A stretch of DNA of 64,000 nt from Corythoichthys intestinalis. Lineage: Eukaryota. The stretch spans positions 22,791,480 to 22,855,479 of the forward strand of contig NC_080408.1 of the NCBI RefSeq assembly GCF_030265065.1, given 5' to 3'. Below the pieces are notes generated by a model, which was not told the DNA's origin, did not search any database, and worked only from the letters and a program-made list of their open reading frames with translations. Positions 17,596 to 19,868 of the stretch are shown piece after piece; positions within the stretch are counted from its first letter, which is position 1; every line of letters begins with the position of its first letter. The translations under genes and the position numbers were made by a program.

Positions 17596-19868
17596 GTTTG
17601 GTACAATAGGGAATGGGACGTACTACGTCATTGTTTGGACGCGCCTCCATACTGGCAATATGATTCACTTCCGGGCCGGCAGAGTCAATGCGGATTGTAA
17701 CGTGTGGTAGTGCTAAGCTAACTCTTTCGGTGTTTTAGAAAGAAAATATGGGTGCTTATTGTTGCGTTACCGGGTGCAACAGCGTCTCCTACGACAAAAA
17801 AAGGGGCTAGGAAAAATGGACTCACTTTTCACCGTTTTCCTGCATGGAGGACCAAATATCAGATCACGAAGGTACGACGGATGGCTGGATTGCAGCGGTT
17901 CGTCGGAAAAGCATTTATGATCATATTTCTGCTGGAATGAGAGTGTGTTCCTGTCATCTCTACTCTTGTAAGTTGAACGCTTTATCCACTTTTGGTTTCA
18001 ATACGTTTTTGTTTTTTTACACCGTTGTGTAAATCTGCCTCGGTAGCAATGCTCGCCTACTACGACTCACCTACCTGTTGTGTTCCTAGGTAAACCTGCT
18101 GACAACACATCCCGATTGGTCACCATCTCTCTTCTTGGATCATTTGACAAAGAAAATTTGTTCAATGGAGTGGTTCCATTTGTCCTGTGTCGGACTCAAA
18201 CAAGCCCCTGCAGCAGACGCCATCTGGGTCTGCCCTTCTCGTCGATGAACTGCGGGCTTTTAACTTGTGAAAATGCAAGAACTTTAATGCACATATTTAT
18301 TCTGCCTGGCTATTTAACTATGGCCAGTGACGTTTTTTTTTTTTTTAACCACTTTGACAAAGACACGTTTCATTGTAATGTTGAATTTATATATTCCATT
18401 ATCATTTTTAAATTATAATATTCTTATTTGCACTTATGTAGACTTTAGACTGTCAATTCAAATAGTGTTGGAAAAGTTGCAATACCTAAAATAGAAATGC
18501 AAGAACTGTAAAGTACATATTTATACACCTTTATTTACCTAAGGCCACTGGATGTTTTTTAACTGCTTTGAAAAATACAGGTTTTGTTGTGATCTTGTAT
18601 TTATATAGTATATAGCTTTTTATAATGTATTATGTATTATAATATTTGCTGCCCCCTGCCAGAATGTGGGCCATTTTGTACTAAAAGGATTTTAAACTGT
18701 CAGTTCAAATACTGTGTTGGAGACTAGTACTTGCAATACTTAAAATGGAAATGCAAGAACTTTAAAGCACATATTTATCCTGTCTGGCAATTTACCCAAG
18801 GCCAGTAAACAGTGTTTTAAACTGCTTTGACAAAGACACGTTTATTGTGATCTTGTATTTGTGTATCACTTATAATTATATAATATTTGCTGCCACCGTC
18901 AGAGGGTGGGCCTTGTTTGCACTAATTTAAAGATTTTAAACTGTCAATTCAAATATCGTATTGGAGAAATTGCATTACTTGAAATAAATCTATTGCAACT
19001 TATCAGTCCCAGTTCTTGTCTACAACACTGTCCAAAAATTGTCAATGCATATTCCAAATAGAATAACAAAATTAAGTCACCTGACTTTGTAATTATTACA
19101 CCTGTTTATTATGAAGACCTGAAGTAAGCAACAAGCAGTTACAGTTTGTCAAGAAGTTGTTCAAGTCATGTTTTGGTATTCATATTTTATTGACTTTTCA
19201 CAACAACACTTGGGATCGTGTTTGTAAGAGCAGAGCAAACTAAAGTTTCAGCGTGCACTCTTCGCCTTTCCAACCTCTCATAACGCTCCGATGTGGTGCG
19301 CTTGACCTCAGAATAACCCAAGAAGAGATATGGTGACCAATCGGGATGTGTTGTCAGCATTTCATATGCAGGTTTTCCTAGTAACACAACAGGTAGGTGA
19401 GGAGGAGGAGAAGGTTAGCATTGCTACCGAGGCAGATTTACACAACAGTAAAGAAACAAAAAAAAAACGTATTGAAACCAAAACGGATAAATCGTTCAAC
19501 TTACAAGAGTAGAGATGAGGGGAATACACTCTAATTCCAGCAGACATATGATCAAGAGAAATGCTTTTCCAACGAACCGCTGCGCCCCAGCCATCCTTTG
19601 TGATCTGATATTTGGTCCTCCATGCAGGAAAACGGTGAAAAGTGAGTCCAGTTTTCCTCGCCCTTTTTTCAGTCGTAGGAGAAGCTGTTGCACCCGGTAA
19701 CACAACAATACACACCCATAATTTCTTTCTAAAACACCGAAAGAGTTAGCTTAGCACGACCACACGTTACAATCCGCATTGAGTCTGCTGGCCCGGAAGT
19801 GAATCATATTGCCAGCATGGAGGCGCGTCCAAACAATGACGTAGTACGTCCCATTCCCTATTAACGCA
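17596..19868. repeat. Large inverted repeat: two roughly 540-bp arms (17596-18133 and 19330-19868), each containing a frame-disrupted THAP-domain ORF (MGAYCCVTGCNS...LTFHRFPAWRTKYQ...WIAAVRRK...CSCHLYSC). The arms flank a 1.2-kb spacer that carries a 230-bp tandem repeat (about 3.2 units, 18250-18980).
   Basis: Arm to arm identity is roughly 90% by reverse-complement comparison. The THAP C2CH signature and FHRFP-type motif are read in both arms (plus strand at 17748-17990, minus strand at 19475-19715). Confidence 0.75.

What the first reader, a model, noticed from the sequence alone, without database searches (positions are those of the whole stretch)
17596..19868. Inverted pair of THAP-domain-bearing 540-bp arms flanking a 230-bp tandem array, in the ZNRF intron
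Both arms carry the same degraded THAP zinc-finger ORF preceded by about 150 bp of shared upstream sequence. They face each other across a 1.2-kb spacer built from 3.2 copies of a 230-bp repeat. THAP domains head P-element-type transposases, so this may be a non-autonomous P-like (THAP9-like) element with two head ends, a foldback element, or an inverted duplication of the first exon of a THAP gene. Such structures form hairpins or cruciforms and are candidate fragility or recombination sites. The arm sequence is not obviously any standard fish repeat I recognise.
Basis: seen in the sequence. Interest (0 to 1): 0.65.

Follow-up and report, generated by a model that had tools for sequence, protein, structure and literature searches.

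The report
Decayed two-headed ISL2EU-type transposon relic
The inverted repeat is real, but it is a dead, internally deleted copy of an ISL2EU-type (Harbinger-related) fish DNA transposon rather than a P element; it sits harmlessly in an intron of the pipefish znrf2 gene, so it is an ordinary kind of genomic fossil with a slightly unusual shape.

Summary
Arms 17608-18144 (+) and 19312-19859 (-) are 91.9% identical without gaps, and nothing else in the window resembles them. Each arm holds a 140-bp leader, a broken THAP exon 1, an intron and the start of exon 2. The spacer is only 62% tandem array: three units of 227-251 bp, 79-81% alike.

The P-element reading fails. The THAP peptide is 41-53% identical to the N-termini of teleost THAP + HTH_Tnp_4 + DDE_Tnp_4 transposases, the architecture published for ISL2EU (PHIS superfamily). 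The right copy still ends with the last ~17 codons of such a transposase, so it is an internal-deletion derivative.

The structure is bounded by A-AT[AGGG...CCCT]AT-T, the published ISL2EU target A|AT|T. There is no 8-bp duplication. The terminal ~40 nt recur about 130-140 bp upstream of homologous genes in two other fish orders.

The left arm runs in frame into half of an ING-type PHD finger. A similar ORF end lies convergent to the transposase gene in an elephantfish.

Best reading: one non-autonomous element whose second end was replaced by an inverted copy of its transposase-gene end. Both THAP ORFs share one frameshift, so the domain was already dead. Host: Corythoichthys intestinalis znrf2 intron; absent at the orthologous site in Stigmatopora. 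Copy number could not be tested. Low interest.

The parts
17605..17607 (.). Left flank AAT: target A plus the AT duplication under the ISL2EU rule A|AT|T
   Evidence: Sequence. The same AAT precedes the homologous terminus in Phoxinus L001. The rule is from PMC4482050.
17608..18144 (+). Left arm (537 bp), a copy of the transposase-gene end of the element. It holds the terminal motif AGGGAATGGGACGTACTACGTCATTGTTTGG (17608-17638, with conservation fading by about 17645), a leader to 17747, THAP exon 1 at 17748-17967 (a frameshift shared with the right arm, a private TAG and a private 8-bp insertion), an intron at 17968-18089 (gtaagt...cctag) and the start of exon 2 at 18090-18144 (...HPDWSPSLFL).
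   Evidence: The intron lies at the same position as in the Phoxinus gene.
18145..18248 (+). C-terminal half of an ING-type PHD finger plus a stop codon (DHLTKKICSMEWFHLSCVGLKQAPAADAIWVCPSRR*), in frame with the left-arm exon 2. Probably the end of the element's second ORF.
   Evidence: PDB phmmer: ING1 1.3e-5, then YNG1 and ING3/4. Pfam PHD E = 0.027. A reciprocal match to a convergent ORF end downstream of the transposase gene in Brienomyrus L007.
18268..18986 (.). Tandem array: three units of 227, 251 and 241 bp, 79-81% alike, plus the start of a fourth. It lies between the two convergent ORF ends.
   Evidence: Not found by TRF.
18987..19186 (.). Unique spacer, presumably the 3' untranslated region of the transposase remnant
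   Evidence: No repeat, ORF or homology found.
19187..19246 (-). Last 19 codons plus the stop of the transposase ORF (TLVCSALTNTIPSVVVKSQ*). They are joined by an internal deletion to the post-THAP linker.
   Evidence: Matches the extreme C-termini of P0003, P0009, P0034, P0037 and P0038 (VCCALTNMSPSV...). DNA match to the end of the Phoxinus transposase ORF, L001 14490-14534, E = 2.6e-5.
19247..19311 (-). Post-THAP linker present only in the right copy (...SEVKRTTSERYERLERRRVHAE), homologous to the LGH...RYER...R segment of the family
19312..19859 (-). Right arm (548 bp), the same parts as the left arm: terminus at 19859, ATG at 19719-19717, exon 1 to 19505, intron 19504-19378, exon 2 from 19377. 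It has a private TGA at codon 17 and Cys-to-Pro at the C2CH site.
19860..19862 (.). Right flank ATT: the AT duplication plus the target T
   Evidence: Sequence. Rule from PMC4482050.

Best explanation
Window 17608-19859 is one decayed, non-autonomous DNA transposon of the ISL2EU group (PHIS superfamily: PIF/Harbinger, ISL2EU, Spy). It lies in an intron of znrf2 in the pipefish Corythoichthys intestinalis.

Inferred ancestor. The autonomous ancestor carried a THAP-HTH-DDE transposase gene. Its promoter, leader and first exons lay directly inside one terminus. A second, convergent ORF ended in an ING-like PHD finger.

What this copy keeps:
(i) the transposase-gene end, made of the terminus, a 140-bp leader, THAP exon 1, an intron and part of exon 2;
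(ii) after an internal deletion that removed the HTH and DDE domains, the last ~19 codons of the transposase;
(iii) the region between the two convergent ORFs, now holding a three-unit tandem array;
(iv) the last ~35 codons of the second ORF.

What changed. The other end of the element, together with most of ORF2, has been replaced by an inverted 537-bp copy of the transposase-gene end. The breakpoint is at 18144/18145. The result is 540-bp terminal inverted repeats.

How it would work. Such an element offers two identical ends to a transposase supplied in trans. It would be cut and pasted into A|AT|T sites, which is what the flanks show.

Shown: the homology, the deletion junctions, the flanks, and the absence of the element at the orthologous site of another pipefish.
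Inferred: that it moved as a unit, how the second end arose, and that ORF2 belongs to the ancestor.

The element is now dead. Both THAP ORFs share a frameshift and carry private stop codons, and the arms are 8% diverged.
For: 1. THAP domain. Pfam E = 2.6e-10 on the frame-repaired peptide.

2. Family. An exhaustive HMMER search seeded with the one close hit (P0001, Phoxinus) found 425 relatives. In local BLASTP the arm peptide is 41-53% identical, E down to about 5e-36, to proteins that begin with this THAP type. All seven of the ten scanned that carry a catalytic domain have DDE_Tnp_4, and five of those also have HTH_Tnp_4.

3. Published ISL2EU features: a THAP+HTH+DDE transposase, an AT TSD within the target A|AT|T, and TIRs of 6-259 bp that usually start with GG (PMC4482050; PMC4122938; PMC9179366).

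4. Window ends read caAAT|AGGGAATGGG...CCCATTCCCT|ATTaa.

5. The same terminus occurs in Phoxinus as AAT|AGGGCTTGGGCGTCATGACGTCATT, 137 bp before the ATG, and similarity to the window stops exactly there. A related motif lies 126 bp upstream in Acnodon, and a weaker one upstream of the ATG in Festucalex.

6. The right copy ends ...RRRVHAE|TLVCSALTNTIPSVVVKSQ*. This matches the last residues of five transposases and, at DNA level, the end of the Phoxinus transposase ORF. A 5' end joined to a 3' CDS end is the classic internal-deletion derivative.

7. No terminus-like sequence lies in the spacer. There are no 10-16-mer matches with mismatches, and not even the 5-mers TAGGG, CCCTA, ATAGG or CCTAT occur. 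The structure therefore has only two termini.

8. Both arms shift from the Cys-box frame to the FHRFP frame at the same place, so they descend from one already defective sequence.

9. The PHD tail recurs convergent to the transposase gene, within about 0.7-0.8 kb of its stop codon, in Brienomyrus.

10. The homologous genes lie in non-syntenic places in different fishes, as expected of a mobile family.

11. The orthologous Stigmatopora intron has about 40 bp where the window has a ~6.1-kb block that contains the element.
Against: - Copy number in the Corythoichthys genome is unknown, so no second copy with the same composite structure has been seen.
- The AAT/ATT flank would also appear at the outer ends of two separate insertions. 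It cannot be told apart from being part of the repeat itself.
- No empty site could be recovered, because the right flank is not orthologous to Stigmatopora sequence.
- The YqaJ exonuclease ORF expected of ISL2EU was not found here, nor among the genes called in the related loci I fetched.
- In the other species no inverted copy of the 5' terminal motif was found on the 3' side, so the normal 3' terminus of the family is uncharacterised.
- The Acnodon and Festucalex loci do not show a clean A-AT before the motif.
- The element starts AGGG rather than GG.
- The DDE domain of the relatives was not placed phylogenetically within ISL2EU versus PIF/Harbinger.
Confidence: 0.68

Rival explanations
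1. Two separate non-autonomous ISL2EU copies inserted tail-to-tail within about 1 kb, or one inserted next to the other. A later deletion removed both inner (3') termini, leaving two transposase-gene ends facing each other.
For: The two copies have different internal deletion junctions: left THAP|PHD at 18144/18145, right HAE|TLV at about 19246/19247. The AAT/ATT flanks are equally expected for independent insertions. DNA transposons often reinsert locally (own knowledge).
Against: It needs two insertions plus at least one deletion that removes exactly both inner ends. No terminus remnant lies in the spacer. The PHD end and the transposase end lie convergent at a spacing like that seen inside a single element in Brienomyrus, which a random deletion between two copies would not reproduce. 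The shared frameshift is neutral between the models, since members of one defective subfamily would also share it.
Confidence: 0.15
2. A natural long-TIR family. The 540-bp arms are the true TIRs of the autonomous element, and both convergent genes (the transposase and the PHD-ending ORF2) start with the same TIR-encoded promoter and THAP exons.
For: The left-arm exon 2 is in frame with the PHD tail. ISL2EU and Spy TIR lengths vary widely, up to 259 bp reported for ISL2EU.
Against: No protein with THAP followed by a C-terminal PHD motif occurs among the 151 proteins held locally (P0001 plus the 150 best hits; regex). No minus-strand THAP copy lies downstream of the transposase gene in Phoxinus L001 or Brienomyrus L007. 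The arm homology ends in the middle of a PHD finger whose N-terminal half is missing, which looks like a breakpoint. In-frame fusion has a one-in-three chance.
Confidence: 0.08
3. Not a transposon: a local inverted segmental duplication of the 5' part of a host or domesticated THAP-DDE_Tnp_4 gene. The conserved upstream motif would be a promoter (CRE-like ACGTCA) rather than a terminus.
For: The intact relatives are annotated as single 'uncharacterized protein LOC' genes, one per cluster. The conserved motif contains a CRE-like palindrome and sits at a fixed distance from the ATG. No TSD beyond 2 bp can be shown.
Against: No parental gene lies in the window. The locus is a lineage-specific insertion in an intron. 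Homology between the arms, and to Phoxinus, stops exactly at AAT|AGGG. The combination of a 5' end and the extreme 3' CDS end is typical of transposon deletion derivatives. The relatives are non-syntenic across fishes, and many are truncated or fused.
Confidence: 0.06
4. One reading: a non-autonomous P-element-type (THAP9/Pdre-like) or Foldback element.
For: A THAP domain is present. P-superfamily elements with long TIRs exist (Galileo, PMC3688188). A THAP-bearing non-autonomous fish element, Izanagi, has been classed as P-like (PMC2820524).
Against: All seven scanned relatives that carry a catalytic domain have DDE_Tnp_4, not a P-element transposase domain. There is no 8-bp TSD. The termini differ from Izanagi's CAATGAGTTATATC.... 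The arms contain no subrepeats of the Foldback kind.
Confidence: 0.02

Closest known systems
ISL2EU group of the PHIS superfamily (Han et al. 2015, PMC4482050; Han et al. 2014, PMC4122938; teleost survey PMC9179366)
   Same: The transposase of the relatives has an N-terminal THAP domain plus HTH_Tnp_4 and DDE_Tnp_4. The ends are flanked A-AT...AT-T. The terminus is G-rich. The group is already known from teleosts. TIR length in the group is variable.
   Different: The TIRs here are about 540 bp, against a reported maximum of 259 bp, and they contain the promoter and first exons of the transposase gene. The terminus starts AGGG, not GG. The remnant of the second ORF ends in an ING-like PHD finger, and no YqaJ domain was seen. 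This copy is non-autonomous and dead.
P element / THAP9 / zebrafish Pdre
   Same: An N-terminal THAP zinc finger. Internally deleted non-autonomous derivatives are common.
   Different: The catalytic domain of the relatives is DDE_Tnp_4, not the P-element transposase. There is no 8-bp TSD. The termini are different.
Izanagi (medaka non-autonomous element with THAP exons, PMC2820524)
   Same: A fish non-autonomous DNA transposon that carries degenerate, intron-split THAP-coding exons near one end.
   Different: Izanagi has 27-bp TIRs (CAATGAGTTATATCACTAGAGGAGACA), an 8-bp TSD and a single THAP copy. It was assigned to the P superfamily.
Galileo / Foldback-like long-TIR elements (PMC3688188)
   Same: Very long terminal inverted repeats that would carry the binding sites for a THAP-domain transposase.
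   Different: Those are Drosophila P-superfamily elements. Their long TIRs are not copies of the transposase gene's first exons, and Foldback arms are built of subrepeats, which these arms are not.
PIF/Harbinger and the domesticated HARBI1 gene
   Same: The same DDE_Tnp_4 catalytic fold in the relatives, and a preference for AT-rich target sites.
   Different: Harbinger has a 3-bp TWA TSD, no THAP domain, and a Myb/SANT second ORF.

Membership tests
ISL2EU (PHIS superfamily) | Transposase with THAP + HTH + DDE (DDE_Tnp_4-type) domains | tested here: met
   The window keeps only the THAP part (Pfam 2.6e-10) and the last ~17-19 residues of the transposase. Full-length relatives P0003, P0009, P0033 and P0038 have all three domains, and P0056 has a weaker HTH hit just below the Pfam cut-off.
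ISL2EU (PHIS superfamily) | 2-bp AT target-site duplication inside the target A|AT|T | tested here: met
   17605-17607 is AAT and 19860-19862 is ATT, directly abutting AGGG...CCCT. Phoxinus shows the same. Caveat: a fixed 2-bp TSD cannot prove that a single insertion event occurred.
ISL2EU (PHIS superfamily) | TIRs of 6-259 bp, usually beginning GG | tested here: inconclusive
   The arms are 537 and 548 bp and begin AGGG, so the GG is at positions 2-3. They are longer than the published range.
ISL2EU (PHIS superfamily) | Second ORF encoding a YqaJ exonuclease | tested here: inconclusive
   No YqaJ was seen. The remnant of a second ORF ends in an ING-type PHD finger. The body of that ORF is deleted here and decayed in Brienomyrus. 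No YqaJ gene was called in loci L001-L007.
ISL2EU (PHIS superfamily) | DDE domain clusters with the ISL2EU clade rather than PIF/Harbinger, Spy, Pangu or Nuwa | not tested
   No reference transposase set was available in the tools. Assignment rests on the THAP architecture and the TSD.
P element / THAP9 | P-element-type catalytic transposase domain | tested here: not met
   Relatives carry DDE_Tnp_4 and HTH_Tnp_4 only.
P element / THAP9 | 8-bp target-site duplication | tested here: not met
   The 8-bp flanks share no more than 0-1 positions, whichever boundary is used: GTTTGGTA versus ACGCAGTC from 17604, or TGGTACAA versus TTAACGCA from 17608.
Foldback elements | Long inverted arms built of short tandem subrepeats, with little or no unique sequence between them | tested here: not met
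   No subrepeats occur within the arms. The 1167-bp spacer holds coding remnants.
Active or autonomous transposon | Intact transposase ORF | tested here: not met
   HTH and DDE are deleted. Both THAP ORFs carry a shared frameshift plus private stop codons.

The most novel reading that the evidence does not exclude
This may represent an undescribed ISL2EU-like lineage. In it the partner ORF would end in an ING-type (H3K4me3-reader-like) PHD finger, either instead of or in addition to the YqaJ exonuclease. Very long TIRs would carry the promoter and THAP exons, so that both ends transcribe inward. That could yield THAP-only peptides acting like the KP repressor of P elements, or convergent transcripts feeding small-RNA silencing.
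Probability: 0.1. Interest if true: 0.45.

Novelty: new member of a known kind. Interest (0 to 1): 0.2.

Why it matters
The main value is for annotation. A THAP finger next to inverted repeats in a fish genome should not be assumed to be a P element, because ISL2EU transposases also start with THAP.

The copy shows how a non-autonomous element can gain very long TIRs by replacing one end with an inverted copy of the gene-bearing end.

It also gives a lead that the second ORF of this teleost lineage ends in an ING-like PHD finger, which is not in the published description of ISL2EU.

For the host, it is one of many insertions that swelled the znrf2 gene from about 4.4 kb in Stigmatopora to about 19 kb in Corythoichthys. 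Nothing suggests a present function.

Tried and rejected
- The word-index protein search with the repaired arm peptide gave only one hit, P0001.
- Exact-ORF look-up of the 117-aa arm ORF, meant to find other copies or the source assembly: not on record. The same look-up for P0152 also failed.
- A search for homologues of the PHD tail found no candidates (after two rejected calls, 47 and 48). The PDB sequence search then identified it as ING-type.
- A scan of JGI metagenome contigs for the terminal motif found nothing.
- Rfam on the whole window found nothing.
- A search for an inverted copy of the 5' terminal motif downstream of the transposase gene in Phoxinus, Acnodon and Festucalex gave only a 13-bp or AT-rich chance-level match.
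- Six-frame reading of Phoxinus and Brienomyrus downstream regions for an intact ORF2 or YqaJ showed only decayed sequence, plus an unrelated C2H2 zinc-finger gene in Phoxinus.
- The empty-site test against Stigmatopora failed to resolve the junction, because the element lies inside a ~6.1-kb lineage-specific block.
- A hAT reading, based on the YARNG-like TAGGG terminus, was considered and dropped. There is no 8-bp TSD, and the relatives have no hAT domains.
- A Kolobok or piggyBac reading, based on the TTAA at the right flank, was dropped. The left flank is ACAA, and the relatives carry DDE_Tnp_4.
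Full report

Yes. The repeat finder returns a collinear chain of inverted pairs between 17605-18144 and 19312-19862. blastn merges them into one match of 560 columns at 87% identity. A global alignment of 17608-18144 with the reverse complement of 19312-19859 has 485 matches, 43 mismatches and 29 gap columns in six indels, which is 91.9% identity without gaps (the alignment is shown).

Nothing else in the 64-kb window resembles the arms at DNA level or at protein level.

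The spacer (18145-19311, 1167 bp) contains three head-to-tail units of 227, 251 and 241 bp at 18268-18986. They are 79-81% alike without gaps. Tandem Repeats Finder misses them.

**2. What each arm contains**

Reading inward from each outer edge, the parts are:
- a 140-bp leader;
- an ATG (17748 on the left; 19719 on the minus strand on the right);
- a THAP-coding exon ending at a gtaagt donor;
- an intron of about 125 bp ending in a pyrimidine tract and ag;
- the start of a second exon (GKPA..HPDWSPSLFLG).

With frameshifts repaired, the peptide hits Pfam THAP at E = 2.6e-10. The intron sits at the same codon as in the Phoxinus homologue.

Both arms jump from the frame of MG.YCCVTGCNS to the frame of GLTFHRFPAW at the same A-rich place. 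The THAP reading frame was therefore already broken in the common ancestor of the two arms. Each arm has since gained private defects. The left has a TAG at codon 21 and an 8-bp insertion. The right has a TGA at codon 17 and a Cys-to-Pro change in the C2CH motif.

**3. The family is not P-like**

The one close database hit, a 93-aa hypothetical THAP protein of Phoxinus phoxinus, was used to seed an exhaustive HMMER search. That search found 425 relatives at E <= 1e-3.

The repaired arm peptide is 41-53% identical (E down to about 5e-36) to proteins that begin with this type of THAP domain, including the characteristic GKPAYEM...DPDWxPSLxLGH extension. Of the ten I scanned, seven carry a catalytic domain, and in every case it is DDE_Tnp_4; five of these also carry HTH_Tnp_4. 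They are annotated only as 'uncharacterized protein' in Carassius, Cololabis, Festucalex (a pipefish), Brienomyrus, Acnodon, Engraulis and Lates. They lie in unrelated genomic neighbourhoods.

THAP + HTH + DDE is the published architecture of ISL2EU transposases, a group of the PHIS (PIF/Harbinger-ISL2EU-Spy) superfamily already known in teleosts (PMC4482050; PMC4122938; PMC9179366). No P-element transposase domain appears anywhere.

**4. The ends**

Han et al. (PMC4482050) describe ISL2EU as making AT duplications inside the target A|AT|T, with TIRs of 6-259 bp that usually start with GG. The window reads ...GGTAC A AT | AGGGAATGGGACG ... CGTCCCATTCCCT | AT T AACGC.... That is the expected A-AT[element]AT-T.

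In Phoxinus the homologous gene is preceded, 137 bp before the ATG, by gcc A AT | AGGGCTTGGGCGTCATGACGTCATTACTTGG. In a three-way alignment, similarity starts exactly at AAT-AGGG and is strongest over the first ~40 nt. Acnodon has AGGGCTTGCGCGTGACGTCATGACG 126 bp upstream of its ATG. Festucalex has a weaker GGATTTGGGAACGTGACGTCAG upstream of its ATG.

I read this conserved motif as the transposon terminus and transposase-binding region. It may double as a promoter element, but that is inference.

**5. The two copies are not equivalent, and the spacer is the middle of an element**

Past the arm, the right copy continues in frame with ...LGYSEVKRTTSERYERLERRRVHAE. This matches the LGH...RYER...R linker of the family. 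It then jumps to TLVCSALTNTIPSVVVKSQ*, which aligns with the last residues of five transposases, for example VCCALTNMSPSV at 708-724 of the 733 residues of P0009. At DNA level it matches the end of the Phoxinus transposase ORF (L001 14490-14534, E = 2.6e-5). This is the typical internal-deletion derivative of a DNA transposon. HTH and DDE are gone, and no remnant of them exists elsewhere in the window.

The left copy departs from the right at 18144/18145. It runs in frame into DHLTKKICSMEWFHLSCVGLKQAPAADAIWVCPSRR*. A PDB sequence search identifies this as the C-terminal half of an ING-type PHD finger: ING1 1.3e-5, followed by YNG1, ING3 and ING4.

The same kind of ORF end turns up in the Brienomyrus locus (...[35 protein letters not shown]...). 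It lies on the opposite strand, within about 0.7-0.8 kb of the transposase stop codon, so the two ORFs are convergent.

In the window the PHD stop (18248) and the transposase stop (19187) are likewise convergent. They are 939 bp apart, and 719 bp of that is the tandem array. I therefore infer that the ancestral autonomous element had two convergent ORFs, and that 18145-19246 is its central part. Whether the PHD finger is the C-terminus of the published YqaJ protein could not be settled. The body of ORF2 is deleted here and decayed in Brienomyrus, and a homology search with the tail found nothing.

**6. One element or two?**

The spacer holds no terminus-like sequence at all. Even the 5-mers TAGGG, CCCTA, ATAGG and CCTAT are absent. 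The structure therefore has only the two outer termini, and both are of the transposase-gene type.

In Phoxinus, Acnodon and Brienomyrus, no inverted THAP copy or inverted terminal motif was found within the sequence fetched beyond the transposase gene (6-8 kb, depending on the locus). The two-headed shape is therefore derived, not the family norm.

The simplest history is as follows. A deletion derivative lost its ORF2-side end, and that end was replaced by an inverted copy of 537 bp of the other end. The breakpoint fell inside the PHD finger. The result is an element with 540-bp TIRs that a trans-acting transposase could still mobilise into an AATT site.

The alternatives are listed with their weights in the rival explanations:
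- two insertions followed by a deletion;
- a true long-TIR family in which both ORFs begin with TIR-encoded THAP exons;
- a non-transposon segmental duplication.

The evidence does not exclude them, because the copy number in the genome could not be examined.

**7. Context**

The 200-aa ORF at 25987-26589 (-) is 100% identical over its first 163 residues (the part searched) to exon 1 of 'E3 ubiquitin-protein ligase znrf2 isoform X1' of Corythoichthys intestinalis. The last exon (...CPEHPSD*) is at about 7190 (-).

The orthologue in Stigmatopora nigra spans 4.4 kb, against about 19.4 kb here. Conserved intronic blocks 17088-17531 and 23633-24133 are about 40 bp apart in Stigmatopora. The element thus lies inside a ~6.1-kb block of lineage-specific insertions. 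This shows it is a secondary insertion, but it prevents a clean empty-site test.

**8. Function and significance**

Nothing suggests a present function. The coding capacity is destroyed, the arms have diverged by 8%, and no RNA family matches the window.

The suggestion of cruciform or fragility behaviour was not tested. From general knowledge of inverted-repeat instability, a 1.17-kb spacer, 8% mismatch and six indels make it unlikely.

**Verdict.** The object is a new member of a known kind (ISL2EU-type). It has two mildly unusual features worth a note: TIRs twice the published maximum, made from the transposase gene's own 5' end, and an ING-like PHD end on the partner ORF.

Noticed in passing
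window 18145-18248 (+); L007 10842-11141 (-): An ING-type PHD finger end lies convergent to the THAP-HTH-DDE transposase gene in two distant teleosts, Corythoichthys and Brienomyrus. Published ISL2EU descriptions give a YqaJ exonuclease as the second ORF and do not mention a PHD finger.
   Followed up: partly
window 7190-26589 (-) versus L005 2001-6410: The znrf2-like gene is about 19.4 kb in Corythoichthys intestinalis but 4.4 kb in Stigmatopora nigra. The introns are swollen by transposon insertions, while several intronic blocks stay 70-85% conserved (11829-12158, 17088-17531, 23633-24133).
   Followed up: partly
window 48975-52858 (+): A LINE retrotransposon with long open ORFs: a 236-aa ORF1, a 547-aa ORF with an Exo_endo_phos endonuclease domain and a 340-aa ORF with RVT_1. 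It is possibly young. A further ORF at 48133-48690 (-) overlaps its upstream edge.
   Followed up: partly
window 2751-3383 (-), 40732-41112 (-), 44051-44458 (-): Remnants of Tc1/Sleeping-Beauty-like transposases. Pfam finds HTH_Tnp_Tc3_2 and DDE_3 in the first and HTH_SB in the third. The second was recognised only by eye from its similarity to the first.
   Followed up: partly
window 36816-39003 and 46776-47111 (+): Exons of a TEP1-like gene (TROVE, DUF4062). It is syntenic with the TROVE/NACHT/WD gene next to znrf in Stigmatopora (L005).
   Followed up: partly
window 20891-21199 and 22801-22986 versus 25078-25571: A dispersed repeat is shared between the block to the right of the element and the region just downstream of znrf2 exon 1, at 77-82% identity. 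It was not identified.
   Followed up: no
L002 9700-10330 (Cololabis saira): The start of the THAP-DDE gene of Cololabis is preceded by tandem copies of its own first ~40 coding bases and leader. Exon 1 sequence is also repeated in the first intron.
   Followed up: no
proteins P0011, P0055, P0064, P0079, P0091, P0018, P0005: The same ISL2EU-type THAP N-terminus is fused in annotated fish proteins to C2H2 zinc-finger arrays or to a C17orf113-type zinc finger. These may be domestications or exon captures of this THAP exon.
   Followed up: no
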